From IMG/VR virus record IMGVR_UViG_3300024255_000004: DNA of 64,000 nt. One strand, given 5' to 3'. Within the stretch, counting starts at the first letter, position 1, and each line of letters begins with the position of its first letter. Positions 18,913 to 36,213 of the stretch are shown piece after piece. Made by a program: the position numbers and the translations under genes. The notes under the pieces were generated by a model, which was given only the letters and a program-made list of their open reading frames with translations, had not been told where the DNA came from and searched no databases. This DNA is from a virus.

Positions 18913-20112
18913 ATGGCAAAAACAGTAGACCAATTTAGCACTATTGAAAACTTTAGGACGAAGTATAATGAACTTGCAGTTGATGTTGGTGAGTTATCGG
19001 GTTTAAGAACCGAATCAACTACAAATGTGGTTGATGCACTTAACAGCCTTGAAGATAAGTCATTCTTTTTTCAAGAATTCCAATACGTTGCAACAGCAAA
19101 TCAAACAGTATTTACGGGTAATGATTCAGACAATAACTCACTTGTTTTTAGAAGTGGAAGAATTCAAGTATTCAAAAATACAAACCTTTTAATATTAGGA
19201 ACAGACTATTCAATCGGTGGTGTAGACGGAAACAAACATACAGAGATTACACTTAACACAGGTGCAAGTGTTGGTGATGTTGTATCAATTTTTGCATACA
19301 CTGGTTCATATATTGGTAGTTCTATTGGTGCTGGTGGTGGAGAAGCTGGTCAGTTCACTGAAACAGCAATAAACACAATTTACAATAAAAATGCAAATGG
19401 TGTTATCCTAAATGGTTCTTCAACTGGAAGAACTACTTCTTTATCAACAAGTGCAAAAATAGAATTTGATTCTAATGGAACTGGTGTATATTCACAAGAA
19501 GATATTACACTTGCAAATGGTAAGAATTTTGTTGGGAATCTAACTGGAGATGTCACTGGAAATGTGACTGGAAATGTTTCGGGAACTTCAGGTAGTTCAG
19601 GAACAGTTTCAAGTATATCTACACATTCTGCAAGTGGTTTATCAGACATTAATTATACCACAACCCCAACAAATGGTCAAATTTTAGTATGGGATAATGC
19701 AAATGGATATTGGGAACCAGCAACTAACCAAGATATGTCATCATTAAGTGGTGATTCAGACGATATTACTGAAGGAACAACAAATCTGTTTTCAACTACA
19801 GAAAGAATTCAAGATGCAGCTGCATCAATGATTACAAGTGCAACACATAGTAATATATCAGTTGCATATGATGATGGATTAGGAACACTTACCTTTACTG
19901 CTGGTGCAACATATTCAGATTCAGATGCAAGAGGTGCCCTTCAAGGTGGTGCTGGACTTAATTACAACTCAACAACTGGTGAGTTCGGTGCAAATACCTC
20001 TAATGGAATTGAGATAAATAGTGATAGTATAGAATTAGATTACGAAATAGTTAATTCAGCACCTTCAACTGCAAGTGGAACCTCAGTGGGACACTTGTGG
20101 TTTGTTATATAA
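18913..20112 (+). CDS. Fibre/appendage protein, probable anchor of the 20122 hairpin protein
   Basis: N-terminal FRTKYNEL coiled coil, GNVTG repeats, DDITEGTTNL and YNSTTG repeats; ends SAPS..GTSVGHLWFVI. Confidence 0.65.
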   Translation: MAKTVDQFSTIENFRTKYNELAVDVGELSGLRTESTTNVVDALNSLEDKSFFFQEFQYVATANQTVFTGNDSDNNSLVFRSGRIQVFKNTNLLILGTDYSIGGVDGNKHTEITLNTGASVGDVVSIFAYTGSYIGSSIGAGGGEAGQFTETAINTIYNKNANGVILNGSSTGRTTSLSTSAKIEFDSNGTGVYSQEDITLANGKNFVGNLTGDVTGNVTGNVSGTSGSSGTVSSISTHSASGLSDINYTTTPTNGQILVWDNANGYWEPATNQDMSSLSGDSDDITEGTTNLFSTTERIQDAAASMITSATHSNISVAYDDGLGTLTFTAGATYSDSDARGALQGGAGLNYNSTTGEFGANTSNGIEINSDSIELDYEIVNSAPSTASGTSVGHLWFVI

Positions 20113-20121
20113 TGAGATGAA

Positions 20122-21747
20122 ATGTCAGACGAAATATACATTAATATAGGAACAACCTTACAACAACCATATCAAGGTCAAGTGCCTGCCAATGCTCAAA
20201 GTAATGAAGTAAAGCAAGCAGTTAGACAGATATCAGTAAATGCTCAGACAACATATAGAAGTCCGAGTCAGACTCCTACTACATACAGAAATCCAGTTAA
20301 TGGTCAGTTATTGGTGCAAGATGCACGACAACCTAGTCCGTTCACTTATCAGAACCAACAACAGAATCCATTTCAAAGTCCGTTTACATATCAACAGCCT
20401 GCGATATATAATCATCAAAATCAAAGAAGTAGTCCGTTTATCGACAATGCGAGACAACCTGTAGATGCATTTCAACAACCAACAGCTGCATATCGAAGTC
20501 CTATAGCTGCCTCTAGACAACCAGTAGCTGCAGTTCAACAACCAGTAGCTGCTGTTCAAACACCTATTGGTGCAAGTAGACAACCAGTTCCAGTAGCTGA
20601 AAGTAGACAACCAGTTCCAGTAGCTGCAACACAGAATCCGTTTACATTCCGAAGTTCTTATCGAAGTCCATTTACATATCAAGATGTCACCCCTTATGCA
20701 ATTTCGGCTCAATCTGCTAATATTCAAGCTGCTCGACAACCAGCAATTTATTATTTTCAGGTATATCAAGCATTTAATGACCCTGATGAATTCCCTAGAC
20801 CTCCTACAGGAATGCCTGGTGAGGTAGCGGGAAACATGCAAATGGGTGGGTTTCAAGTCACAAGAACTCCAGTTATAAATCAAGTTCAAGGTGCATATGC
20901 GTCTACGCAAACCCCTGTTGCAGCTTATCCAGCAAACAGACAGACCACCAATTATTATTTTAATCCATATAATGGTGAAGACTACCCGTATCAATTACCT
21001 GCGACATATCAAGCTGGTGCATATCGGTCTCCATCGATTGTATTTATCGCACAAAATCCAGTCTCTGCTCAACAGACGTTGCAACAACCAGTTCCAGCAA
21101 GACAACCAGTAGCTGCATTTACATATCAGAGTCCTGTAGCTGCGTTTACATATCAGAGTCCTATAGCTGCATATAGACAACCAACAGCTGCATATCGAAG
21201 TCCTATAGCTGCATATCAGAGTCCTATAGCTGCATCTCAACAACCAGTGGCTGCATTTACAACACCTATAGGTGCATTCCAGTCACCATTTACGTTTCAG
21301 AATCAACAACAGGTAAACGACCCTGTTAGTGCAAATCGACAAACAACGATTCAAGCAAGGGGAGACGGACAAGCGTCAAGTCCTTATATTGCAAATGCAC
21401 AACAACAACTTACAATTCAGTATAGGTCTCCATTTACATATCAAAATCCTGTAAATAAACAAGTTGCAACACAAAATATTGTTCAACAACCTTCAATATA
21501 TCAAGCACCTTATCAGGTTTCCTATCAACATAGGTCTCCTTTCATTTATCAGACACCATACTCAACAACTAGAAGTATCGGCCCTATTGCAAAAGTGAAA
21601 GCAGTATATGTGAATAAAGATGGTGCTCAAGCAACACCCGAAAAACTAGAGGAAATATATGTTAATAACCAAAATACTGCAGAGAAAATACACCAAACAG
21701 TTCCAACTGCAAGATTCTCTAAACACCCTTCAAACACTCAACAATAA
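20122..21747 (+). CDS. Gln/Pro/Tyr-rich mirror-symmetric repeat protein (single-chain hairpin filament)
   Basis: Pro-delimited repeats on both sides of a central region are mirror-ordered (Pro i+j=502); C-terminal KVKAVYVN...IYVN domain. Confidence 0.7.
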   Translation: MSDEIYINIGTTLQQPYQGQVPANAQSNEVKQAVRQISVNAQTTYRSPSQTPTTYRNPVNGQLLVQDARQPSPFTYQNQQQNPFQSPFTYQQPAIYNHQNQRSSPFIDNARQPVDAFQQPTAAYRSPIAASRQPVAAVQQPVAAVQTPIGASRQPVPVAESRQPVPVAATQNPFTFRSSYRSPFTYQDVTPYAISAQSANIQAARQPAIYYFQVYQAFNDPDEFPRPPTGMPGEVAGNMQMGGFQVTRTPVINQVQGAYASTQTPVAAYPANRQTTNYYFNPYNGEDYPYQLPATYQAGAYRSPSIVFIAQNPVSAQQTLQQPVPARQPVAAFTYQSPVAAFTYQSPIAAYRQPTAAYRSPIAAYQSPIAASQQPVAAFTTPIGAFQSPFTFQNQQQVNDPVSANRQTTIQARGDGQASSPYIANAQQQLTIQYRSPFTYQNPVNKQVATQNIVQQPSIYQAPYQVSYQHRSPFIYQTPYSTTRSIGPIAKVKAVYVNKDGAQATPEKLEEIYVNNQNTAEKIHQTVPTARFSKHPSNTQQ

Positions 21748-22102: not shown

Positions 22103-22345
22103 ATGACAATTAAAGGAACATTAAGTAGAGTTGCAACTATTGGTGGTAAAGTCCAAGGACAAGGTAATATCCGTGCAAAACAAGTTGCAATCGGTAATTC
22201 ATCTTCAAATGTAAATCTATCTGCAAAATCAATCAACGAATTATCAGATGTAGATGCAAGTGAAACAGATGACGGACTTTTATCTTATGATGCATCAACA
22301 GATAAATGGACTACTACAACAATTTTAGATGGTGGAACGTTCTAA
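22103..22345 (+). CDS. Small fibre connector protein
   Basis: LSDVD...GLLSYD...KW; ends DGGTF. Confidence 0.55.
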   Translation: MTIKGTLSRVATIGGKVQGQGNIRAKQVAIGNSSSNVNLSAKSINELSDVDASETDDGLLSYDASTDKWTTTTILDGGTF

Positions 22346-22537: not shown

Positions 22538-24118
22538 ATGGCAACAGTTATTCAAATCAAAAGAAGCACTGGCTTATCAGCTCCAACAGTCTCAGACTTA
22601 TCGGAAGGTGAATTAGCGTATGTGCAAGATAGGGCTAACTCAGGAAATAGTGCAAAACTTTTTATTGAATCCGTAGACTCAGACAACTCAACTCCATTAA
22701 TACAAGCCATCGGTGGTAAGTATTACACGGACATGTTGGCTGGTTCAAGTGCAACCCCTGCTAACTTAAAAGTTGGTAATGGTTCTACTTCAGGTGGTTC
22801 AATTAAGTTAATGGAAGATTCAGACAACGGAACAAACTCTGTTGCTCTTAAATCTCCCGATACACTAGCCTCTGATTTATCCTTTACATTACCTTCAGCA
22901 GATGGTAGTGCAAACCAAGTTATGGCAACAGATGGTTCAGGAAACCTTTCTTTTGTCTCAACAACATCTTCACTAGAAGGTGCGTCTGATACAGATATCT
23001 CATCTCCAACAACTGGACAAATACTTGTTCATGACGGAAGTGATTCATTTGACAACGTATCAATGAGTGGTGATATAACAATGAATTCAGCAGGTGTCAC
23101 TGTAATAGGTGCTGGAACTGTAGAATTCACAATGTTAGATGGTGCGGTAGTCCAAACTTCAGGGGAAGCATTCTCTGATGATGACGTATCATTAATGACA
23201 TCTGCAGCTATCTTGGACAAAATCCAAGCAACTGCAACTTTAGAAGACTTAGACTTCGCAGGTGGTTCAGGAACAGGGTCAGTAGACCTAGATTCACAAT
23301 CATTAACGATTGCTGGAACAGCTAACGAAATCGAAACTTCTGCTTCAGGACAAACTTTAACAGTAGGTTTACCTAGTGACGTGACAGTTGGAAACGACTT
23401 AACAGTCACAAATAACTTAATTGTTTCAGGTCAATTACAATCAGACGATATCACTGCATCAACAATGACTGCAAGTGGAAACGTTGTTGTGACTGGAAAC
23501 TTGACAGTTAACGGAACTACTACAACTGTAAATTCAACTACTACTTCAGTAGCTGACCCAGTATTTGAAATCGGTGACGATTCAGCTGATGATAACTTAG
23601 ATAGAGGTATTAAATTTAAGTATAATTCAGGTGGAGCTAAAATTGGTTTCTTCGGTATGGACGATACAGATGGTAAATTCACATTCTTTGCAGACGCAAC
23701 TGATTCTTCATCAACTTTCTCAGGAACAGCTGGTGACGTTAAATTCGGTGGTATTGCAGCTAGTGGATTAGCATTAAGTGGTTCAATCACTTCAGTAGAC
23801 GGAGCTGCTCCAACAGCAGGTCAAGTATTAATTGGTAATGGTTCTAATGGAGACATGGAACTTGCAACAATTACTGCTGGTGAAGGACTTGATATAACAA
23901 ATGCAGACGGAAGTATTACACTTTCTGCAGAAGACGCAACAGATGCCAACAAAGGTATTGCTTCTTTTGGTGCAAGTTATTTCACAGTGACTTCAGGTGA
24001 TGTAGCAATCAATGATGCAACAACATCATCTAAAGGTATAGCTTCATTCGACTCAAGTAATTTCACACTCACTTCAGGTGATGTTGCAATTACAGCTATT
24101 GACGGCGGGACATTTTAA
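22538..24118 (+). CDS. Tail fibre-like protein
   Basis: MATVIQIKRS...EGELAY N-terminal motif; GNLTVNGTTTTVNST; KGIASF repeats; ends DGGTF. Confidence 0.7.
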   Translation: MATVIQIKRSTGLSAPTVSDLSEGELAYVQDRANSGNSAKLFIESVDSDNSTPLIQAIGGKYYTDMLAGSSATPANLKVGNGSTSGGSIKLMEDSDNGTNSVALKSPDTLASDLSFTLPSADGSANQVMATDGSGNLSFVSTTSSLEGASDTDISSPTTGQILVHDGSDSFDNVSMSGDITMNSAGVTVIGAGTVEFTMLDGAVVQTSGEAFSDDDVSLMTSAAILDKIQATATLEDLDFAGGSGTGSVDLDSQSLTIAGTANEIETSASGQTLTVGLPSDVTVGNDLTVTNNLIVSGQLQSDDITASTMTASGNVVVTGNLTVNGTTTTVNSTTTSVADPVFEIGDDSADDNLDRGIKFKYNSGGAKIGFFGMDDTDGKFTFFADATDSSSTFSGTAGDVKFGGIAASGLALSGSITSVDGAAPTAGQVLIGNGSNGDMELATITAGEGLDITNADGSITLSAEDATDANKGIASFGASYFTVTSGDVAINDATTSSKGIASFDSSNFTLTSGDVAITAIDGGTF

Positions 24119-25801: not shown

Positions 25802-27724
25802 ATGGCAACTAATTCAAAATTCAGTGCAGATTTAGGTATAAAGACAGATGCAGACCTACAAGTAGACGGAAACGTCACTGTATCAGGCAACCTAACAGTC
25901 AATGGAACCCAAACAACAGTAAACTCTTCCACGACTTCGGTGGAAGACTCAATGTTAGAGCTTGCAAATGCAAACGTATCTTCTGATACACTTGATATCG
26001 GTATTTACGGAAACTATGATGACGGATTAGGTGACGGAGTATCAGAATACACTGGATTCTTTAGAGATGCAACAGATTCAACTTGGAAATTATTTGACGG
26101 ATTAGAAGTAGAACCATCGACTACAGTCAATACTAGTGGAACAGGTTATACACTTGCAGACTTACAGGTGGGTGACTTAACTGCAACCACTTTGACTGCA
26201 ACCAATGCTCTTACAGGGTCTTCTATCACCTATCCTACTTCAGACGGAACAAACGGACAATTTTTAAAAACAAACGGAAGTGGTGCTTTATCATTCGGAG
26301 ATATCCCAACACAATATACTGATTCAGACGCTAGAAGTGCAATAAGTGTTAGTGGTGATTTATCTTATAATTCTTCAACTGGTGTAATATCATATTCAGA
26401 TTCCGATACAACATATACTGATTCAGACGCTAGAAGTGCAATAAGTGTTAGTGGAAATCTTGCATATAACAGTTCAACGGGTGTTATATCTTACTCAGAA
26501 CCTACAATGTATGCAGACTCAGACGCTAGAAGTGCAATAAGTGCTGGAACTGGAATATCATATGATAGTTCAACTGGAGTAATAACAAATACAGTTTCAG
26601 ATACAGACACAACATATAGTGCTGGAACTGGGTTAAGTTTATCGGGAACAACTTTTAGTAGCACAATAACTCAATATGCAGACTCAGACGCTAGAAGTGC
26701 AATAAGTGCTGGAACAGGTATCTCATATAACTCCTCAACTGGTGTTATTACAAATACAGTTTCAAATACTGATACAACATATAGTGCTGGAACTGGATTG
26801 AGTCTATCGGGAACAACATTTAATAACACAATAACACAATATGCAGACTCAGACGCTAGAAGTGCAATAAGTGCTGGAACTGGAATTTCATACGATAGTT
26901 CAACTGGTGTTATTACAAATTCTTCAACTGCAGACGGAATTATCACAAGTGGTGTGACTACAATCATTCAATCACAAGATGATACGAATGTTATTCACAT
27001 AAACAACTCTGCAAATGTTGGTATTGGAACAAGTATTGCAAATCACAAAGTAAATATTCATACAGATACCGATGATGATTATGCATTAAGAATTGAAGGA
27101 AGCACAAATAACTCTGCAGTTTGGACTGGTATAGGTCTTGCTGGAGAGGAATCTAATACTAAAGCTGCAATCATTTTTAAAGACATAGCACAAAGTTATG
27201 CAAGAGGAGATTTAATATTTGCTCTTAACAGTTCCGCAGACCAAACAAATGCATCTCCGTCTGATGCAAAAATGACAATCACTAACGAAGGATATATCAC
27301 TGCACCGAATCAAGTTGCATTTAGTGTTGCAAAAAACAATGGATATCAAACTGATGATAATGTTTTTGTTTGTGATTCAACAACTGGTAGTAGAAACCAT
27401 AACGATGGAAGTCATTACAATACTTCAAATGGAAGATTCACTGCACCAGTTGCTGGTAGATATTGGTTCTCCTTTAGTGTGCAAACACATGACTCAGGTG
27501 GTGTTGTTCAAGCATGGGTAGCACTTAGAAAGAATGGTTCAATAGTGCAATACAATTTACAACATAAAACTGGTGGGTATCATACTAGATTTGACATGTC
27601 GATATCATTAAAATTAGCTGCAAATGATTACATTGATGCATATGTTGGAGAATCAGGAACAAGTTCAGGTTGGCAAGGTTCTGCATCTGAATACAATAAC
27701 TTCAGTGGATTTTTAATAGGATAA
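25802..27724 (+). CDS. Tail fibre protein with internal repeats and a C-terminal C1q-like domain
   Basis: GNLTVNGT.TTVNS; five YxDSDARSAIS repeats; GRFTAPVAGRYWFSF...LAANDYI...FSGFLIG. Confidence 0.75.
   Translation: MATNSKFSADLGIKTDADLQVDGNVTVSGNLTVNGTQTTVNSSTTSVEDSMLELANANVSSDTLDIGIYGNYDDGLGDGVSEYTGFFRDATDSTWKLFDGLEVEPSTTVNTSGTGYTLADLQVGDLTATTLTATNALTGSSITYPTSDGTNGQFLKTNGSGALSFGDIPTQYTDSDARSAISVSGDLSYNSSTGVISYSDSDTTYTDSDARSAISVSGNLAYNSSTGVISYSEPTMYADSDARSAISAGTGISYDSSTGVITNTVSDTDTTYSAGTGLSLSGTTFSSTITQYADSDARSAISAGTGISYNSSTGVITNTVSNTDTTYSAGTGLSLSGTTFNNTITQYADSDARSAISAGTGISYDSSTGVITNSSTADGIITSGVTTIIQSQDDTNVIHINNSANVGIGTSIANHKVNIHTDTDDDYALRIEGSTNNSAVWTGIGLAGEESNTKAAIIFKDIAQSYARGDLIFALNSSADQTNASPSDAKMTITNEGYITAPNQVAFSVAKNNGYQTDDNVFVCDSTTGSRNHNDGSHYNTSNGRFTAPVAGRYWFSFSVQTHDSGGVVQAWVALRKNGSIVQYNLQHKTGGYHTRFDMSISLKLAANDYIDAYVGESGTSSGWQGSASEYNNFSGFLIG
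26315..26917 (+). repeat. In-frame tandem repeats (5 copies of Y(T/A)DSDARSAIS..G..YxSSTGVI)
   Basis: Near-identical TCAGACGCTAGAAGTGCAATAAGTG core in five copies starting near 26315, 26414, 26510, 26675, 26840. Confidence 0.85.
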
Positions 27725-27732
27725 ATAGAATT

Positions 27733-27984
27733 ATGGATTATACAATTACATTAACTGCAACAGAAAAGAAAGTTATGGATACAATCACTACAGATATAGA
27801 TGATTGGATTACTAACGCTGCACAAAATAGAGCAAGAATTGCTAAAGAAGAGATTCTCTCTGCATTGATTTTACACTGCAATGTAAATGGTGTCACTCTT
27901 GCGACAGGTGAAGAAGCACAAATTGACCAAGCATATACATTAGGTGTATGTGAAGCAGCTGCTGATGCACCAATGCCTGAATAA
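27733..27984 (+). CDS. Small protein following the C1q fibre (possible chaperone/tip partner)
   Basis: Good ORF; WITNA..NRARIA motif; position. Confidence 0.55.
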   Translation: MDYTITLTATEKKVMDTITTDIDDWITNAAQNRARIAKEEILSALILHCNVNGVTLATGEEAQIDQAYTLGVCEAAADAPMPE

Positions 27985-28083: not shown

Positions 28084-28344
28084 ATGGCAACACAAAATAC
28101 ATTCGTAATTGAGTATGGTTTAACAGTAGGAACTACTGAAATCATATCTAGTGCTGGTAAATTAGCAGCTAGTGCATTATCATTACTAGACACTGATAAT
28201 CTTGCAGAAGGTTCGGTGAATCAATACTTTTCAAACTCTCTTGCAAGGGGTGCTATAAGTCTTGCAAGTGGGGAAACAAATTTAAACTACAACTCATCAA
28301 ATGGTGAGTTATCATTACCACAATTAGATGGAGGAACATTCTAA
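28084..28344 (+). CDS. Small fibre connector protein
   Basis: F.IEYGLTVG N-terminus; TDNLAEGS.NQY; ends DGGTF. Confidence 0.55.
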   Translation: MATQNTFVIEYGLTVGTTEIISSAGKLAASALSLLDTDNLAEGSVNQYFSNSLARGAISLASGETNLNYNSSNGELSLPQLDGGTF

Positions 28345-30017
28345 TGACAGCAAAGAATTTTAATATTAAAAATGGTTTATCCGTTGGTGGTGTAGAGGTA
28401 ATCGACTCCAGTGGTAATATTGCCGCAGGTGGAGTAGGTGCAGCGGTTCAAGAAGCAATCGCAGATAAAATCGGTGGAATAATTCAGGGGTCAGGTTCAA
28501 CGACTGTGACTTATGATGACACTGCTGATACAATTACAATCTCATCAACAGGAAAAACAACAGAAGAAATACAAGACATTGTTGGTGGAATGATGTCAGG
28601 TAATACCGAATCAGGTATTACAGTTGCATACGAAGACGGAGACGGAACTATAGACTTTACAGTAAGTCTTTCTTCATTCGATACAGATGCATTATCAGAA
28701 GGTTCAACAAATCAGTATTATACTGATGCAAGAGCAGACGCAAGAATCGCAGCTGCAGATACAGATTCATTATCAGAAGGAAGTTCAAACCTTTATTACA
28801 CAGATGCAAGAGCAGATGCGAGAATAACAAATGCATTAATTGACGAAGATAATATGTCATCTGATAGTGCTACTAAACTCCCATCACAACAATCAGTAAA
28901 AGCATATGTCGATGGACAAACAACAGACGAAACTGCTGAAGGTTCAAATAACCTCTATTTCACAGATGCAAGAGTGATGACTTCACTAGCAACTGTAGAT
29001 GCAAATATTGTTCCAACTACAGACATTACTTACGACTTAGGTTCTGCAAGTAAACAATGGAGAGATATCTATGTTGGGCCAGGTTCATTATATGTTAATG
29101 GACAACAAGTGGTTTCAGATAATTCAGGAACAATTACTATTTCTGCAGACGATGACCAAAACGTATCACTTCAAACAGGTGGTTCAGGTGATATCGAATT
29201 AGATGCAACTGGAACAGGTAATATACAAATTAAAGCACCTATGCAGATACAAGCATCAAATGCTATATCTTCATCAGATGGAAATGCAATTCAATTCTCA
29301 AACTCGATTGATGTAGATGCAATTGAATCAAGAAGCACAGACACTAACTTAGTGTTAACAGGAAATGGAACAGGTAATGTCACATTAAATGACGATGTTG
29401 CAATCACTGGAAACTTAACAGTTTCAGGAACAACTACTACAGTTAATTCAGAAACTATATCACTTGCAGATAATATTATTGCATTAAACAGTAATTTCAC
29501 TTCAGGTTCACCAACAGAAGACACTGGTATCAGTGTGACTCGTGGTGGTTCTGCTGCTAAGACACTTCTTTGGGACGAAACAAACGACAAATGGTCTGTT
29601 GGTTCAGAAACTTTTGTTGCAGCGACTTTTGAAGGAAACTTAACTGGTAATGTCACTGGAACAACTTCAGGAAATGCTGGTTCAGCAACAGTCTTAGAAA
29701 CTGCAAGAACAATTAGTTTGGGTGGAGACCTTTCAGGTTCTGCTTCATTCAATGGTTCTGCAGATATCTCAATCACAGCAACAATCGCAGATGATTCACA
29801 TAATCATATCATTGCAAATGTTGATGGATTACAGACTGCATTGGACACAAAATATGAAAGTGGTTCAAATGTATCATTAGGAACTATTGCCTCAGGTGCG
29901 ATAACAATCACCAATGCAACGAATGCTGGTGGAACTGCAAGAAACGTTTATCAATCAACTTCAGCTCCTTCAAGTGGAGATGGTGCAGTTGGTGATTTAT
30001 GGGTTCTATACTCCTAA
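28344..30017 (+). CDS. Tail fibre-like protein, probable anchor of the 30074/30786 pair
   Basis: FNIKNGLSVG; TD.LSEGS.N.YYTDARA repeats; YDLGS..KQWRDIY; ends SAPSSGDGAVGDLWVLYS. Confidence 0.7.
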   Translation: MTAKNFNIKNGLSVGGVEVIDSSGNIAAGGVGAAVQEAIADKIGGIIQGSGSTTVTYDDTADTITISSTGKTTEEIQDIVGGMMSGNTESGITVAYEDGDGTIDFTVSLSSFDTDALSEGSTNQYYTDARADARIAAADTDSLSEGSSNLYYTDARADARITNALIDEDNMSSDSATKLPSQQSVKAYVDGQTTDETAEGSNNLYFTDARVMTSLATVDANIVPTTDITYDLGSASKQWRDIYVGPGSLYVNGQQVVSDNSGTITISADDDQNVSLQTGGSGDIELDATGTGNIQIKAPMQIQASNAISSSDGNAIQFSNSIDVDAIESRSTDTNLVLTGNGTGNVTLNDDVAITGNLTVSGTTTTVNSETISLADNIIALNSNFTSGSPTEDTGISVTRGGSAAKTLLWDETNDKWSVGSETFVAATFEGNLTGNVTGTTSGNAGSATVLETARTISLGGDLSGSASFNGSADISITATIADDSHNHIIANVDGLQTALDTKYESGSNVSLGTIASGAITITNATNAGGTARNVYQSTSAPSSGDGAVGDLWVLYS

Positions 30018-30073
30018 TACAGGGGTTTAGAATTGCATAAATATAATATTAATATTCAGTGGAGATAGAATAA

Positions 30074-30775
30074 ATGGCAACAGGTTATAGACAATATCCC
30101 TATATATCAAATGCTCAGCAACCTTTTACGTTTCAGAGTCCATTTACGTATAGTGCAAGGTATCCAGCAAGTGCTCAACAACCATTTACGTATCAGAATC
30201 CATTTACGTATAATGCAAGATATCCAGCAAATGCTCAGCAACCTTTTACGTATCAGAGTCCGTTCACATATCGTGTGCCTTATATTGCTAATGCAAGACA
30301 ACCATACACATATAGAAACCCATTCACATATAGGGTTCCATATATTGCTAATGCTAGACAACCTATAATTTATTCACATAGGTCTCCATTTACGTATAGA
30401 AATCCTGTTTCTGCACAAGAACCTAATATTAGGAATGCACAAACACCATTCACATATAGAAACCCAGTTAATGGTCAAGAACCTAACATTAGGAATGCAC
30501 AAACACCATTCACATATAGAAATCCAGTTAATGGTCAAGAACCTAATATTAGGAATGCACAGACTCCATTTACGTATACTAATCAACAGCCTTCTACATA
30601 TCAGAATAGACAGCCTTCTACTTATCAACATAGAAGTCCGTCAATTTATATTAACCAACAGCCGTCAACGTATACTAATCAACAACCTTCTACATATGCA
30701 AGACAGGGACAAACACCCGAAGCTAGATGGGACGGAGTTGTATCACAGCAATGGCCTGCAACCCCAATTAGTTAA
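30074..30775 (+). CDS. Gln/Pro/Tyr-rich repeat protein A (mirror partner of 30786)
   Basis: GGAG RBS and CATAAATA at 30036; 29 Pro-delimited segments in aa 10-215. Confidence 0.75.
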   Translation: MATGYRQYPYISNAQQPFTFQSPFTYSARYPASAQQPFTYQNPFTYNARYPANAQQPFTYQSPFTYRVPYIANARQPYTYRNPFTYRVPYIANARQPIIYSHRSPFTYRNPVSAQEPNIRNAQTPFTYRNPVNGQEPNIRNAQTPFTYRNPVNGQEPNIRNAQTPFTYTNQQPSTYQNRQPSTYQHRSPSIYINQQPSTYTNQQPSTYARQGQTPEARWDGVVSQQWPATPIS

Positions 30776-30785
30776 GGAATAAGAT

Positions 30786-31655
30786 ATGGCAACAGGAAAT
30801 CAAAAAGTAAAAACACCTTCAGGTTGGAATTCAACTCAAGGTGCATGGGTCAAAACTGGTTCTTCTTCATGGAGTGCAGTTGACCAAATTTATGTTAAGA
30901 CACCTTCGGGGTGGAATAATGCGTCAGGACAAGAATTAACTCAAATTCCTTATCCTTATATTGCAAATGCACAAACACCTTATATTGCAAATGCACAAAC
31001 ACCTTATACTGCGAATGCACAGAATCCTTCTATTAGGAATGCACAGACACCTTATATTGCGAATGCACAGACAACTTATCAAGCGAATGCTAGACAACCT
31101 TCTACTTATCAACATAGAAGTCCGTTCACTTATCAGAACCCTAGTAATGCTAGACAACCTTCTACATACCAATATAGAAGTCCGTTCACTTATCAGAACC
31201 CTAGTAATGCAAGACAACCTTCTACATACCAATATAGGTCTCCATTTACATACAGAAGTCCTGTAAATGCTCAACAACCTAACCAAAGGAATAAACAGTC
31301 TCCATTTACATATGATGCTAGGTATCCTGCGAATGGTCAGAGTCCTAGTAATGGACAGACTCCATTTACATATAATGCAAGGTATCCTGCGAATATAAGA
31401 CAACCAGTTCCAGCAAGAAACCCATTTACATATAGGGTTCCATATATTGCTAGTGCTAGACAACCAGTCCCAGCAAGGAATCCGTTTTCATATCGTGTGC
31501 CTTATATTGCTAATGCTAGACAACCAGTTCCAGCAAGGAATCCGTTCACATATAACCATAGACAGCCTGGAGTTTACTTCTTCCAAACTGGTGGTGGTGG
31601 AGGTGGTGGCTTCCCAACACCCGATGGGCCAGGAGATGCGCCAGGAATCTACTAA
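30786..31655 (+). CDS. Gln/Pro/Tyr-rich repeat protein B (mirror partner of 30074)
   Basis: N-terminal VKT..GW motif x3; 29 segments in aa 56-261; Gly/Pro-rich tail. Confidence 0.75.
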   Translation: MATGNQKVKTPSGWNSTQGAWVKTGSSSWSAVDQIYVKTPSGWNNASGQELTQIPYPYIANAQTPYIANAQTPYTANAQNPSIRNAQTPYIANAQTTYQANARQPSTYQHRSPFTYQNPSNARQPSTYQYRSPFTYQNPSNARQPSTYQYRSPFTYRSPVNAQQPNQRNKQSPFTYDARYPANGQSPSNGQTPFTYNARYPANIRQPVPARNPFTYRVPYIASARQPVPARNPFSYRVPYIANARQPVPARNPFTYNHRQPGVYFFQTGGGGGGGFPTPDGPGDAPGIY

Positions 31656-31675: not shown

Positions 31676-31705
31676 AAAAAAGGGGGTCTGCAGACCCCTT
31701 TTTTT
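31676..31705 (+). terminator. Rho-independent terminator (possibly bidirectional)
   Basis: A-run, GGGGTCTGCAGACCCC inverted repeat, T-run. Confidence 0.8.
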
Positions 31706-31723
31706 ATGTCCTAAATATATACT

Positions 31724-33286
31724 ATGAAATACTTGAAATACTATTCAGACGTTATCAACGAAATTAAACCCGAAGATTGGAACTTAAAGGAAATGGATTT
31801 CCGAGACCTTATTGCAAAGGAAGATTACAATATTGGTGTTTTCCAAGATATCTATAATATAGATAAAGAATCAGACGCATACAAATCATTCAAATATATT
31901 TTTGAAAACATTATTCCACCCACAAAAATTATAAAATGGGGTGATATACTAGAACTTCGAAAGAATAAAACCTTTTTAGGTTTCCAAGGTGCTGGACTAG
32001 AATCCGTTCACTATCACAAGTTTTTACCTGACGTATATACAGCAATAGAAAGAGAGGGTAGACAAGTAGGTCAAATGGATTGTAAGACTGCAGATGGTGA
32101 ATATGCAGATATAAGAGATTATGTAGAACTTACAGAAGAACAGAAATCAGATATGTGGTCTGAAATCCAAATAAACTCTATGTATTATCATAGTGCAAAA
32201 GCACATTGGTTAATTCAGAGTATTCAAGAAGAAGGTTTAAGACACCCAATACAAGGGACTACATATAAAGTTGATAATAGATTTGGTTTTAGAATACACC
32301 CAGGCACTATTAGGTCTAAAGTTTTTGAGGAATTGGAAGACCCCAACTTTGAAATATTTGCAACAGATATACATGATATCTTTGATATAACACCTTTAAC
32401 TTGTGACGAAGCGTTAGAGTTTTGGAGAAAAAAACTAGAAGATAAAAAAGAACATGTAAGTCACCCTAGTCTATCAATAACTTTCTGTAATGGAAATTTA
32501 GAATACAACCATAACTTAATGGAGTTAGGTTTTAGAGAAGAGGTTTATGCACATAGTAAAAAGGCTACACTTCAATCAAAAGGTAAACCCCTTAATATTT
32601 ACATAGGATATGATTCTAATCACGGAGACCTACATGAGGTCAACAAAAATTCAATACTACATTCATTGTCTAAAAGTATGGGTCAATACCAAAAAGAACT
32701 TCATTGGGAACCCGAAATCAAATTCCTTGACATTTCTAAACTTCCCGACTATAATAGGGAGTATGCAAATCAGTCTACTGAATTTACTTACAGTAGATTC
32801 CTAATACCACATTTAGAAAACTATGAAGGATATAGTATCTTTATTGATAATGATTTCATATGGAGAAACAATATTCTACCTTTATTCTATTATCTGAATT
32901 TAGATGATGCAGTTGCATGTATTCAGTATAAACAAATAGAACATGATACAACTAAGTTTAATGGTGAGGTCAATATAGATTATCCTAAAAAACTATGGTC
33001 GAGTCTTATGATTTTTAATAATAGTCATGAAGACTGTAAAAAGTTAACACCCGAAGCTGTCAATACATGGACAGGAAAACAACTACACCAATTCGAATGG
33101 ACTGATAAGATTAGTCCGATACCCGAAAAGTATGTATTTACCGAAGGGTATGATAACCCTGATGAAAAATGGGATTACCATGGTATTCACTATACAAGGG
33201 GAGGCCCATGGGTAAAAGACATGGATTATTCCAACATAAATAATCTAGATGATTGGATAAAAGCAAAAAACATCTTGCAAAAATAA
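31724..33286 (+). CDS. Fusion of a ParB/Srx-like domain and a GT-A (GT8/CDI-like) glycosyltransferase
   Basis: LIQSIQEEGLRHPI...IHPG.IR in the N-half; IYIGYD, STEFTYSRFLIP, DND (DxD), YPKKLWSSLM, HYTRGGPW in the C-half. Confidence 0.7.
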   Translation: MKYLKYYSDVINEIKPEDWNLKEMDFRDLIAKEDYNIGVFQDIYNIDKESDAYKSFKYIFENIIPPTKIIKWGDILELRKNKTFLGFQGAGLESVHYHKFLPDVYTAIEREGRQVGQMDCKTADGEYADIRDYVELTEEQKSDMWSEIQINSMYYHSAKAHWLIQSIQEEGLRHPIQGTTYKVDNRFGFRIHPGTIRSKVFEELEDPNFEIFATDIHDIFDITPLTCDEALEFWRKKLEDKKEHVSHPSLSITFCNGNLEYNHNLMELGFREEVYAHSKKATLQSKGKPLNIYIGYDSNHGDLHEVNKNSILHSLSKSMGQYQKELHWEPEIKFLDISKLPDYNREYANQSTEFTYSRFLIPHLENYEGYSIFIDNDFIWRNNILPLFYYLNLDDAVACIQYKQIEHDTTKFNGEVNIDYPKKLWSSLMIFNNSHEDCKKLTPEAVNTWTGKQLHQFEWTDKISPIPEKYVFTEGYDNPDEKWDYHGIHYTRGGPWVKDMDYSNINNLDDWIKAKNILQK

Positions 33287-33303
33287 CAATTCTATTATAT
33301 AAT
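33274..33303 (+). promoter_or_regulatory. sigma70-like/middle-type promoter
   Basis: TTGCAA-17-TATAAT; shares CTTNC(A/T)AAA(A)TA(A/C)C with the uvsY and gp55 upstream regions. Confidence 0.5.
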
Positions 33304-33321
33304 GGAGAGAGGAACAAACAA

Positions 33322-33885
33322 ATGAATGCATTAATTTACACAGAAAGCGGAAAACTAATAATTAGAAAACCAAATGGTTTGGAATGGGAATATGAAAATG
33401 TAGACCAACCCGAACTAGGATTTGATTATGAGGTTCTTGTCTATGATGATATTGAAATTAAAATATTAAAATGGAATGACGAAATTAGAGATTTCGAAGG
33501 TCAAGAAAAATCCATACTAACTGATGAAGACAAACGTAGTATTGAATTATACATAGAAAATTCAGAACCACCTTTAGGATATAACTTAAATACACAATAT
33601 GTTAACAGACTAGAACAAACAATTGGTCAATATACTCAAGCGACTTCAGAGTTGTATGGTATGATTGATTTATATTATGCAACATACGCTGGAAGAGAAG
33701 GTTCAAATCACCCTAGACGTGCAGATGCAAGAAGAGTTTTAGAATATTGTGATACTGCATACTCATGTTTTAGTCAGATTGCTCAAGAGATAATGTCCAC
33801 AAGAGAAGATACTCTAAAACAATACGAAGAATACTTATCTGTAATTCCCGAACCACTAGTTCAGCCTGACTCTAGAACAGGTTAA
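33322..33885 (+). CDS. Hypothetical protein, possibly a tail-fibre assembly chaperone
   Basis: GAGG RBS before ATG 33322; C-terminal YA...SNHP...DARR.LEYCD..Y pattern recalls fibre chaperones. Confidence 0.4.
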   Translation: MNALIYTESGKLIIRKPNGLEWEYENVDQPELGFDYEVLVYDDIEIKILKWNDEIRDFEGQEKSILTDEDKRSIELYIENSEPPLGYNLNTQYVNRLEQTIGQYTQATSELYGMIDLYYATYAGREGSNHPRRADARRVLEYCDTAYSCFSQIAQEIMSTREDTLKQYEEYLSVIPEPLVQPDSRTG

Positions 33886-33888
33886 TGT

Positions 33889-34626
33889 ATGGAACTCATT
33901 TATCATGATGAGTCCTTTAAGTTAAAAGATATAGGATTCCCCCTTAAAGACATTCACATAATTGATAATTGGTTGCCAGTCCAACTACATCATTGGGTCG
34001 ATAAATCAATTGCTAATTCTAACATTTGGGCAAAAAGGAATGAAGTAAGAGGGACAAGTCCTACAGGTTTATCACATCATCAATTTTGGGGTGGAACACT
34101 ACTCTCTGCACTTGAAAGAAGTCCAAAATATACATATCCTAATTTCGCAGGTGATATTGCAGATTACCACAATTCTGCACCCAAACTAGTAGCAAGATTT
34201 TTAGATAAAAAACTACAAACTGATTTTGGTTTTGCATGGGAAAGATTTCAATATATGGGTTTAAACTCTCAGACACAAGGATTACATGGAACAACACACT
34301 CAGATTGTTCAGATGAAGATGAATGGAATCTATCATTTCTATATTACACTAATACGTTTTGGTCAAAACATTGGGGAGGCCCTTTGAGAATATATGACGA
34401 AATGCAACAGGGTTTACATGGAAGGAACGACCATATTAAGAATCACCAAATTGCAGAAATAGAATTTGTTCCAAATAGACTTGTTGTATTTGACGGAAGA
34501 ATACCACATGGTGCAGATGCACCCACACCCGAAGCACGATATATAGATAGGAAGTCAATAGTAATCAGAGGTGATGAAATTAGACTTGTAGAAGATAAGG
34601 AATGGTTTAAACAATGCCCACAATAG
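33889..34626 (+). CDS. 2OG-Fe(II) oxygenase (prolyl-hydroxylase-like)
   Basis: HSD...LYY...W...WGG.L...PNRLVVFDGRIPH...R. Confidence 0.8.
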   Translation: MELIYHDESFKLKDIGFPLKDIHIIDNWLPVQLHHWVDKSIANSNIWAKRNEVRGTSPTGLSHHQFWGGTLLSALERSPKYTYPNFAGDIADYHNSAPKLVARFLDKKLQTDFGFAWERFQYMGLNSQTQGLHGTTHSDCSDEDEWNLSFLYYTNTFWSKHWGGPLRIYDEMQQGLHGRNDHIKNHQIAEIEFVPNRLVVFDGRIPHGADAPTPEARYIDRKSIVIRGDEIRLVEDKEWFKQCPQ

Positions 34627-35516
34627 AATTCAACACATTTAATGAACAGACTTTAAGAGACACTAAACCTGTATTAGCAAAATCTGTCACACCTGATTGG
34701 TGGAAAAATATGAAGTTCAATGAATATACTCGTGGAATCATGGGAACTACTATACGTGCATGTCCAGCCATGGACGATTGGTTAAAAAGTGGTTGGTATT
34801 TGTGTGCAAATCGAGATATGATTGTAAAAAATGGTCACATAGATGATAATGATGACAGTCAATATGTTAGTTCATCAGAATTTGGAGATGGTTGGGAAAC
34901 TTCTTCTCCTCATCACCCCTCATGGCAGATGGGATATGCATTTCAATATCTTCCTGATGATGAAGCACCCGTAAGGAGTGCATTTAAGTTTAGAAATGCA
35001 TGGAACATAACTACACCGCCTGGATATTCCACTATGTATCTAGACCCATTTTTATTTCAAAATAAATACTTTGCAACATGGCAGGGAATTATTGACACGG
35101 ATAAATTTAATGCAAACTATGACAATGCACAAATTATATTTTATCCACGTGTCAGTCATTCGTTTGTTATAAAGAAAGGAACTCCTTTAGTTCAAGTAAT
35201 ACCATTTAAAAGAGAGGAGTGGAATGCAACTTACCTAGTAAACGGAAGTGGAGACTGGACAAAGAATAGAAGTTATCTAACTGCAAATGAAGGTCGTCAA
35301 AAAACTATGGACGAGTTTTCAAGAGACCCATCAACTTCTAATGAAGCAAGAAGTGAAGAATTTGCATTAGGTGGATATAGAGGTGGGAAACTACATACAG
35401 GTAAGGGTAAAAACTTTAAAGAAGAGAGTCCACCACCCGAGTGTCCTTATCATGTCAGTGAAGACTCACCCGAAATACAACTAGAATTACCTATAGGAGA
35501 TAAAGATGGCGATTAG
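34614..35516 (+). CDS. Hypothetical protein of the family usually linked to phage 2OG oxygenases (DUF6065-like)
   Basis: PDWWK..., TIRACPAM.D, FKF.N.W.I.TPPGYS, GIIDTD, IKKGTPLVQVIPFKRE.W. Confidence 0.6.
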   Translation: MPTIEFNTFNEQTLRDTKPVLAKSVTPDWWKNMKFNEYTRGIMGTTIRACPAMDDWLKSGWYLCANRDMIVKNGHIDDNDDSQYVSSSEFGDGWETSSPHHPSWQMGYAFQYLPDDEAPVRSAFKFRNAWNITTPPGYSTMYLDPFLFQNKYFATWQGIIDTDKFNANYDNAQIIFYPRVSHSFVIKKGTPLVQVIPFKREEWNATYLVNGSGDWTKNRSYLTANEGRQKTMDEFSRDPSTSNEARSEEFALGGYRGGKLHTGKGKNFKEESPPPECPYHVSEDSPEIQLELPIGDKDGD

Positions 35517-36213
35517 ATTACTATTTCCATATGCATGTATTGAAAGAAACCTTTTAGACGAAGGTGTATTAACACAAGATTATATGGATATGTTAGCAAA
35601 TACTATGGATAGTATGAGAAAGAAAGACCCGAAGGGTAGACAAGTCTCTAATCAGTATACTGGTTGGCAGTCTAATGATGGTGTAGAAAGAAATCCAACC
35701 TTCTCTAAAGCAATAAGAACAATTAAGAATACTTTTGATACTGAATTATTGAGTTATACAGGACATAGTCCAACAGAACTTCAATTATCAATAGGTAATG
35801 CATGGGCAAACATTAATGATAATACAGCATGGAATGCACCACACTTACATAATGGTTGTTGGTATAGTGGTGTGTTTTATATAAAAGCAGATGGTGATGA
35901 AGGTAATTTTATGGCTATTGATACAGACTGTAAAGTAGTTTCAGACTTTCCATATTCTCCTAGAGATGCACAGAACTGGAAACTTGCACCAAGAACTGGT
36001 CATTTATTTCTATTTCCAAGTGCATTAATGCATATGGTTGAACCCAATCTTACTCAAAAAGATAGATATAGTATATCATTCAATATGAATATGAATTTCC
36101 TTTCAAACAACTCAAGACATTCTCAGTTGCAAGGGTTCCACCCTGATGAACTTACTTTTCATACTGATGAAAATGGAAAACTAATACAAAACCAAACCAC
36201 TACAGACGAGTAG
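35506..36213 (+). CDS. Putative 2OG-Fe(II) oxygenase (TIGR02466-like)
   Basis: GWQS; WANIN....N.PH.H...SGVFY; LFLFPS.L.H.VEPN....RYSISFN. Confidence 0.8.
   Translation: MAIRLLFPYACIERNLLDEGVLTQDYMDMLANTMDSMRKKDPKGRQVSNQYTGWQSNDGVERNPTFSKAIRTIKNTFDTELLSYTGHSPTELQLSIGNAWANINDNTAWNAPHLHNGCWYSGVFYIKADGDEGNFMAIDTDCKVVSDFPYSPRDAQNWKLAPRTGHLFLFPSALMHMVEPNLTQKDRYSISFNMNMNFLSNNSRHSQLQGFHPDELTFHTDENGKLIQNQTTTDE

What the first reader, a model, noticed from the sequence alone, without database searches (positions are those of the whole stretch)
30074..31655. Two adjacent genes encode mirror-complementary proteins: a base-pairing-like code for an antiparallel protein zipper
SEEN: cut at prolines, protein A (30074, aa 10-215) gives 29 segments of lengths 8,6,8,6,6,8,6,6,6,8,6,6,8,8,6,6,8,6,6,8,6,6,8,8,8,8,8,8,10. 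Protein B (30786, aa 56-261) gives 10,8,8,8,8,8,8,6,6,8,6,6,8,6,6,8,8,6,6,8,6,6,6,8,6,6,8,6,8, which is exactly the reverse; both arrays total 206 aa. Parsing caveats: one B boundary is Thr97, and four extra B prolines (YP once, VP three times) are treated as internal. Equivalently, 29 of the 30 A prolines at position i have a B proline at 270-i. Content is complementary too: each of the 29 pairs has one aromatic segment (x-T/I/S-Y/F) and one small-residue segment, and the Tyr/Phe lies opposite Ala/Gly in 27 of 29 pairs (exceptions Lys and Ile). Specific partners recur whichever chain carries them: STYQ(H/Y)RSP with xIRNAQTP, FTYxARYP with YIA(N/S)ARQP, FTYRVP with A(N/S)xxxP, FTYQNP with VNGQEP. 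INFERENCE: A and B form an antiparallel in-register two-stranded beta-ribbon (even segment lengths; aromatic-over-small cross-strand packing), about 65-70 nm if fully extended. The aperiodic 6/8 barcode would fix one register. I know of no described phage fibre built this way.
Basis: partly seen in the sequence, partly recalled or inferred. Interest (0 to 1): 0.97.

Follow-up and report, generated by a model that had tools for sequence, protein, structure and literature searches.

The report
Mirror-paired two-protein phage fibre
Two neighbouring genes of an uncultured marine T4-like phage encode repeat proteins that match unit for unit when one is read backwards, and relatives change both genes together, so the two chains most likely zip head-to-tail into a long thin tail-fibre extension held in register by a pairing code that I could not find described.

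Summary
Observation confirmed exactly: 29 of 30 array prolines of A face a proline of B at i+j=270 (next best 17; 0 of 200,000 shuffles). There is no inverted DNA repeat, so the mirror exists only in protein. It is a family rule. Of 127 distinct gene pairs (A 152-562 aa), 117 mirror at a fixed offset from the chain ends, and indels in A are matched in size and mirror order in B. Proline spacing is even in 9716 of 9721 cases, and aromatics lie on one face, which indicates beta strands. Coupling analysis puts the direct pairing at i+j=268, with Pro/Pro at 270 a diagonal; 270 is not excluded. The pair always follows a tail-fibre gene, and B ends in swappable tip modules. A paralogue (20122) occurs split or fused as a fold-back chain. 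Best reading: an antiparallel A-B beta-ribbon extending a tail fibre, 1:1 or bundled 3:3. The scan found this family before on other DNA.

The parts
30074..30775 (+). Gene A, 233 aa: repeat array (aa 10-215) plus conserved C-terminal anchor motif (RWD...WP, aa 216-233); the returning strand, C-terminus at the base
   Evidence: synonymous changes outnumber non-synonymous in close relatives
30786..31655 (+). Gene B, 289 aa: conserved N-terminal beta-rich base domain (aa 1-55), mirror repeat array (aa 56-261), Gly-rich variable tip (aa 262-289)
   Evidence: (beta-meander predicted at low confidence in a relative)
30036..30043 (+). T4-type late promoter-like motif CATAAATA upstream of A
   Evidence: read; [ACT]TAAATA lies within 60 nt upstream of the first gene in 92 of 126 pairs; T4 consensus TATAAATA from own knowledge; not tested for function
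31682..31705 (+). Terminator-like GC hairpin with T run after B; with the promoter motif it suggests that A and B form one late transcription unit
   Evidence: sequence; hairpin found by scan (reported on the minus strand)
28344..30017 (+). Tail-fibre-like protein, 557 aa, ending in a conserved GDLW motif; likely carrier on whose C-terminal tip the A/B pair docks (inferred)
   Evidence: PHROG tail fibre / structural hits; same C-terminal motif directly upstream in all 30 representative loci with upstream DNA
20122..21747 (+). Paralogue C, 541 aa, same repeat vocabulary; fused fold-back form of a system that is two genes (C and D) in many relatives; partial self-mirror at i+j=495-502
   Evidence: 0 of 200 shuffles; profile match to B, probability 99.6
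18913..20112 (+). Fibre-like protein, 399 aa, ending in a GHLW motif directly upstream of C; likely carrier of the C/D system (inferred)

Best explanation
A and B are late structural proteins that pair antiparallel along their whole repeat arrays as a twisted two-stranded beta-ribbon, about 206 residues or up to 65-70 nm here and roughly 50-180 nm across the family. B runs from base to tip and A runs back. B's N-terminal domain and A's C-terminal motif meet at the base and probably dock on the C-terminus of the tail fibre encoded just upstream; B's C-terminus carries a swappable tip. Prolines sit on one face at non-hydrogen-bonded sites, which forces even unit lengths and blocks the ribbon's edges. 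Aromatic residues face Ala/Gly/Val on the other face. A unit can pair only with a same-length unit of the opposite type, so a gain or loss of units in one gene must be matched in the other. Shown here: the mirror, its conservation, compensating indels, parity, face composition, residue coupling, gene context. Inferred: binding, beta structure, register 268, docking site, role as a host-reaching fibre extension. Open: whether ribbons stand alone or three bundle round an aromatic core on a trimeric carrier (I lean slightly to bundling).
For: Mirror peak in all 57 first pairs with 0 of 2000 shuffles each. 117 of 127 pairs have the peak at len(A)+33 to +40, 109 at +36/37. Cognate pairs match a median 91% of A prolines against a mean 50% for non-kin pairs. 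Indels match in size and mirror order, e.g. 8, 10, 18 aa in both genes of L096 versus L112. A-B complementarity exceeds A-A in 127 of 127 and B-B in 126 of 127; parallel alignment scores near zero. Even inter-Pro distance 9716 of 9721; Tyr+Phe 31% on one face, 0.8% on the Pro face. Direct-coupling analysis peaks at offset -2 on both faces, with diagonals at 0 on the aromatic face and -4 on the Pro face; the aromatic-face and diagonal signals fall away when partners are shuffled within the same Pro pattern. The Pro-face diagonal has the direction known for non-hydrogen-bonded sites of right-handed hairpins (Tyr2-Lys9 versus lateral Glu4-Lys9, PMC10096425). Co-substitutions between close kin are 3.2-3.4-fold enriched at offsets -2 and 0. 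Fused fold-back paralogues self-mirror (L032, L324, L328). Context. Weak: AlphaFold2 on an artificial stop read-through of L110 paired B262-281 with A2-22, sum about 284 = offset -2, at pLDDT up to 59.
Against: No confident structure: mean pLDDT 28.6 and 32.6. 10 of 127 pairs have their peak off the usual offset, mostly through one uncompensated indel; in 6 of 13 such or similar cases the other chain is identical to one in a compensated pair, as assembly errors in repeats or recent single steps would give, but I could not check reads. Offsets -2 and 0 tie in the co-substitution test. Coupling rests on a small repeat vocabulary and related genomes. Several fused C proteins show little self-mirror (L007, L088, L314). 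No cultured phage carries the genes, so virion location is inferred from context only.
Confidence: 0.8

Rival explanations
1. Higher-order form: three A and three B strands alternate in a closed six-stranded antiparallel needle, like the T4 gp37 needle but from two genes and without metal. Each A strand has two B neighbours, at registers 268 and 270, and each core layer holds three aromatic and three small residues. This is a variant of the best explanation at the level of stoichiometry.
For: Strictly one-sided aromatic face; coupling and co-substitution at both -2 and 0; carrier gene matches tail-fibre families that are usually trimers (trimer is own knowledge).
Against: 28% Pro on the outer face would remove many hydrogen bonds along one edge of every strand (inference); the face-specific diagonal pattern is already explained by one ribbon; no HxH metal motif.
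Confidence: 0.35
2. The chains pair antiparallel but not as beta strands: polyproline-II or mixed helices wrap round each other, as in streptococcal antigen I/II.
For: 14% Pro, rich in Gln, Tyr, Arg; Pro-aromatic packing is the stabilising principle in antigen I/II (PMC3707005).
Against: Period is strictly 2 (even spacing, two-faced composition), not 3 or 3.6; coupling links aromatics to Ala/Gly on the non-Pro face, not to Pro.
Confidence: 0.06
3. Each chain folds on itself or forms homodimers (local hairpins of adjacent opposite-type units); the mirror between genes is a relic of a split fold-back ancestor and is no longer used.
For: Adjacent units are often code partners; self-complementarity reaches about half the A-B score; some B and C proteins self-align with gaps.
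Against: Recent indels and substitutions are still matched between the genes of 95%-identical relatives, which a relic would not show.
Confidence: 0.04
4. The mirror is produced by DNA processes (inversion, gene conversion) or by assembly artefacts, without protein contact.
For: A and B share DNA repeat units; two probable chimeric assemblies were seen (L258, L304).
Against: No inverted repeats; unit order is reversed while each unit reads forward and faces a different unit type (1 self-pair in 1049); rule holds in over 100 independent assemblies and both gene orders.
Confidence: 0.01

Closest known systems
Needle domain of the T4 long-tail-fibre tip, gp37 (six-stranded antiparallel beta needle, about 15 nm; PMC9659904, PMC3004832)
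   Same: Thin antiparallel beta shaft at the distal end of a T4-like tail fibre, going out to a tip and back, with both ends at the base.
   Different: gp37 is one chain in three copies, with iron bound by HxH motifs (own knowledge). Here two genes, no HxH, no sequence match, a Pro-punctuated unit code, 4 to 12 times the length, and length set by matched repeat counts.
Streptococcal antigen I/II stalk (A-repeat alpha helix wound with P-repeat polyproline II helix; PMC3707005)
   Same: Two unlike repeat regions pair antiparallel into a long stalk that holds a variable domain at its tip; the fused paralogue C has the same out-and-back layout.
   Different: One chain, alpha/PPII rather than beta; each arm is of one type throughout. 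Here both unit types and three lengths are mixed in both chains, giving a readable complementary sequence.
SMC/Rad50 antiparallel coiled-coil arms and tandem beta-zippers such as fibronectin-binding proteins or titin-telethonin (own knowledge, not tested)
   Same: Long antiparallel pairing with a fixed register.
   Different: Coiled coils are helical and intramolecular; beta-zippers add a short strand to folded domains. None is a two-strand polymer with unit-by-unit complementarity and compensating indels in two genes.
Cementoin repeat (PF10511)
   Same: Weak compositional hit (A 30.8 bits against a cut-off of 27; B below cut-off); Gln/Pro-rich short repeats.
   Different: Vertebrate transglutaminase substrate that needs Lys; the arrays have 0.2% Lys. 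Treated as chance.

Membership tests
T4 gp37-type needle | Sequence homology to gp37 or lambda Stf needle | tested here: not met
   No PHROG, Pfam, NCBIfam or PDB match for A or B arrays; no annotated phage hit; Atlas gp37_trimer row scores 0.80, chance level
T4 gp37-type needle | HxH metal-binding motifs along the shaft | tested here: not met
   0 HxH in 117 paired arrays
T4 gp37-type needle | Single chain that runs out and back | tested here: not met
   A and B are separate genes in 127 pairs; the one B-A fusion (L304) looks chimeric. Met only by the fused paralogue C
T4 gp37-type needle | Six-stranded antiparallel beta structure, three-fold | tested here: inconclusive
   Antiparallel beta pattern supported; strand number not resolved; folds low-confidence; complex tool unavailable
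Antigen I/II stalk | Ala-rich alpha-helical arm paired with PxxP polyproline II arm | tested here: not met
   Both chains have the same mixed composition and strict period 2
Antigen I/II stalk | Antiparallel pairing of unlike repeats with a variable domain at the tip | tested here: met
   By sequence inference only; works-like, not membership
Phage tail-fibre / receptor-binding appendage (functional class) | Located in the tail-fibre gene cluster under late control, with variable tip modules | tested here: met
Phage tail-fibre / receptor-binding appendage (functional class) | Present in the virion and binds the host | not testable with these tools
   No cultured representative
Cementoin (PF10511) | Gln and Lys donor/acceptor repeats in a WAP-domain protein | tested here: not met
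   No Lys in A array, one in B; no WAP domain

The most novel reading that the evidence does not exclude
A natural protein duplex: two separately encoded chains built from a small alphabet of 6-, 8- and 10-residue units that pair by a complementarity code into an antiparallel beta filament of programmable length and sequence, evolving by compensating indels as a nucleic-acid helix does.
Probability: 0.7. Interest if true: 0.93.

Novelty: categorically new. Interest (0 to 1): 0.87.

Why it matters
If true it is a fibre architecture outside the known phage repertoire of homotrimeric coils, beta-helices and needles, in an abundant uncultured marine T4-like lineage, with two such systems per genome. 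It would be a natural case of sequence-readable complementarity between long polypeptides, with over 100 natural variants that spell out the pairing rules. That makes three questions directly testable: how proline can be used to build rather than break beta structure, how two slippage-prone genes stay matched, and whether arbitrary complementary protein strands can be written from a unit code.

Tried and rejected
The window's own assembly is not held. AlphaFold2 on fused paralogue C failed (pLDDT 28.6). AlphaFold2 on an artificial B-stop-A read-through of locus L110 (stops read as Gly; not a natural protein) gave pLDDT 32.6 with one 20-residue hairpin; Foldseek of that model against PDB and viral libraries gave nothing at E<=0.001 and is not meaningful. 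A base-end construct could not be aligned properly. Natural read-through of B into A rejected: no frame bias (15 of 40 in frame). Fusions L304 (B-A) and L258 (B-D) set aside as probable chimeras; any such join keeps the offset automatically. First coupling runs showed mixed face labels; redone with face-specific alphabets, same pattern. Profile search of 1.84 billion representatives found 104 hits at E<=1e-10, nearly all of this family by their ends; the long proteins inspected were unrelated low-complexity repeats. B N-terminal domain versus D C-terminal domain: only a weak 22-column match (probability 13), homology not shown. Host not determined: hits in five MAGs of four unrelated taxa are probably mis-binned viral contigs. 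Literature searches for a two-chain antiparallel phage fibre found nothing relevant; the library lacks most subscription papers, and the primary gp37 and antigen I/II papers were not held.

Full report
Setting. The window is the tail and head region of a T4-like myophage of about 35% GC: baseplate genes, a cluster of fibre genes, then neck, terminase, sheath and capsid genes. The capsid protein is 66% identical to those of Methylophilales phage Melnitz and Pelagibacter phage HTVC008M. No annotated phage carries a relative of A or B. Neither has a PHROG or NCBIfam family; Pfam gives only a compositional Cementoin hit.

The observation. 29 prolines match at i+j=270; the next antiparallel offsets give 17, the best parallel 19. 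Segment shuffles never reach 26 in 200,000 trials, and an order-3 Markov model of segment lengths reaches 29 once in 100,000. There is no inverted repeat in the DNA: units read forward in both genes and only their order is reversed.

A family rule. Scans of viral and metagenome contigs gave 127 distinct A/B pairs, A 152-562 aa, 102 in the order B-A and 25 A-B. In the first 57 the antiparallel Pro peak beat all 2000 shuffles each. The peak lies at len(A)+36 or +37 in 109 pairs and within +33 to +40 in 117, so the chains are anchored by B's conserved N-terminal 55 residues and A's conserved C-terminal motif. Cognate pairs match a median 91% of A prolines; non-kin combinations a mean 50%. In 17 comparisons of relatives, indels in A were matched in B by size and in mirror order, for example 8, 10 and 18 residues between L096 and L112 at 95% identity, and 16, 16 and -8 between L191 and L172. 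These comparisons were drawn from in-register pairs, so equal net change is implied; the match event by event is the new information, and in two comparisons one indel was matched by two smaller ones. Ten pairs are off register, mostly by a single uncompensated block. They may be assembly errors in repeats or real intermediates; reads could not be examined.

The code. Jointly bounded segments are 6, 8 or 10 residues in nearly all cases, and an aromatic-type unit faces a small-type unit; 1 of 1049 pairs is a self-pair. Partners are specific within a length class: FTYRNP with VSAQEP-like units, FTYRVP with ANAQQP-like units, HRSP-ending octamers with NIR-starting octamers. A-B complementarity exceeds A-A in all 127 pairs and B-B in 126.

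Why beta, and which register. Distances between prolines are even in 9716 of 9721 cases. The Pro-parity face is Pro, Gln, Arg, Thr, Asn, Ile with 0.8% aromatics; the other face has 31% Tyr+Phe and 22% Ala+Gly. In a two-stranded antiparallel ribbon, a residue without an NH fits only at non-hydrogen-bonded sites, which alternate with period 2 (established knowledge); this explains the parity and requires an even i+j. Mutual information peaks at offset -2 from the Pro/Pro register (1.60 bits) ahead of 0 (1.32). Mean-field direct-coupling analysis on paired windows peaks at -2 on both faces (Pro-Arg, Pro-Gln, Thr-Asn; Ala-Phe, Ala-Tyr, Gly-Phe), with secondary peaks at 0 on the aromatic face and -4 on the Pro face. 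The pattern holds in short and long arrays separately; shuffling partners within the same Pro pattern removes the aromatic-face signal and most of the -4 signal. A diagonal two below the lateral sum at non-hydrogen-bonded sites is what right-handed hairpins show (PMC10096425). Among near-identical relatives, A78 and B190, A190 and B78, A171 and B97 change together, all at sum 268. Over 38 close comparisons, co-changes are enriched 3.2-fold at -2 and 3.4-fold at 0, so this test confirms contact but does not separate the two registers. I put 268 at about 70%. Signals at both offsets could also mean two neighbours per strand, as in a six-stranded bundle.

Structure prediction. AlphaFold2 failed on paralogue C. 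On an artificial stop read-through of B into A from L110 it formed one antiparallel hairpin between the tip ends of B and A, with strand ends summing to about offset -2, and a beta-meander in B's N-terminal domain, all at low confidence. This is weak support only.

Where it sits. In all 30 representative loci with upstream DNA, the pair directly follows a fibre gene that ends in the same GDLW/GDMW motif, and it is followed in most by a gene of about 520 aa. A late promoter-like motif precedes the first gene in 92 of 126 pairs and a terminator-like hairpin follows B. Beyond the array, B ends in a short Gly-rich tail (68 pairs, as here), a Hint/intein-like domain (35) or another long domain (24), the last often followed by a small gene. 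This is the pattern of a swappable fibre tip. Docking on the carrier's C-terminus is inference.

A second system. Gene 20122 uses the same vocabulary and follows another fibre gene ending in GHLW. In 34 distinct cases it is split into two genes, C and D, many of which mirror each other; in 26 it is one chain. Fused forms in L032, L324 and L328 mirror themselves clearly, the window's copy partly (i+j=495-502, with 7-residue units), others hardly. A chain that folds back on itself, with both ends at the base, is independent support for the antiparallel layout.

Comparison. It works like the T4 gp37 needle (thin out-and-back beta shaft; PMC9659904, PMC3004832) and like the antigen I/II stalk (unlike repeats paired antiparallel under a variable tip; PMC3707005). 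It fails membership of both: no homology, no HxH, two genes, strict period 2, mixed unit types on both chains. I found no description of such a system in the library searched, which is incomplete.

Earlier notes. The scan reported this family on other genomes. My reading was recorded before I saw those notes. I took the antigen I/II lead from them and checked it in a review. They are not counted as evidence.

Verdict. Antiparallel A-B pairing is strongly supported by co-evolution but not shown physically. Stoichiometry, exact register and function remain open. Interest 0.87.

Noticed in passing
L057, L085, L107, L138, P0001 and 30 further pairs: C-terminus of B: B often ends in a Gly run followed by a Hint/intein-like domain (CF...HN; Pfam Intein_splicing above cut-off in P0001). 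The cleavage point lies next to where A's N-terminus should sit, so self-cleavage might expose the tip or ligate it to something; untested.
   Followed up: partly
window 31724-36213: A 520-aa protein (C-terminal half phrog_28018; looks glycosyltransferase-like by eye, no family hit), conserved directly downstream of nearly every A/B pair, followed by 2OG-Fe(II) oxygenase genes (33889, 35506). Could hydroxylate or glycosylate the Pro/Thr-rich face; no evidence beyond position.
   Followed up: partly
window 20122-21747, aa 110-176 and 326-392: The fused paralogue uses 7-residue (odd) mirror units in its middle, unlike the strictly even A/B arrays; implies a regular bulge or a different geometry.
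   Followed up: partly
window 22103-22345, 22538-24118, 28084-28344: Three fibre-cluster proteins end in the same DGGTF motif.
   Followed up: no
window 25802-27724 and 27733-27984: Fibre with a C-terminal C1q domain followed by an 83-aa gene, the same tip-plus-small-gene layout seen after long-tipped B proteins.
   Followed up: no
L019:86-1189 and L019:8331-9695; L098, L106: In some genomes B and C end in the same C-terminal tip sequence, suggesting tip exchange between the two systems.
   Followed up: no
L258:973-1746, L304:777-2165: B-D and B-A fusions joined inside shared repeats: misassembly or recombination between the paralogous arrays.
   Followed up: partly
L021, L023, L029, L033, L040, L015, L016: A 44-aa block varies in copy number, sometimes in only one gene of a pair: candidate intermediates of compensatory evolution, or assembly errors.
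   Followed up: partly
window 28344-30017, aa 427-480: Weak match (E 1e-4) to the C-terminal trimerising part of the phage L Dec protein (PDB 6E3C).
   Followed up: no
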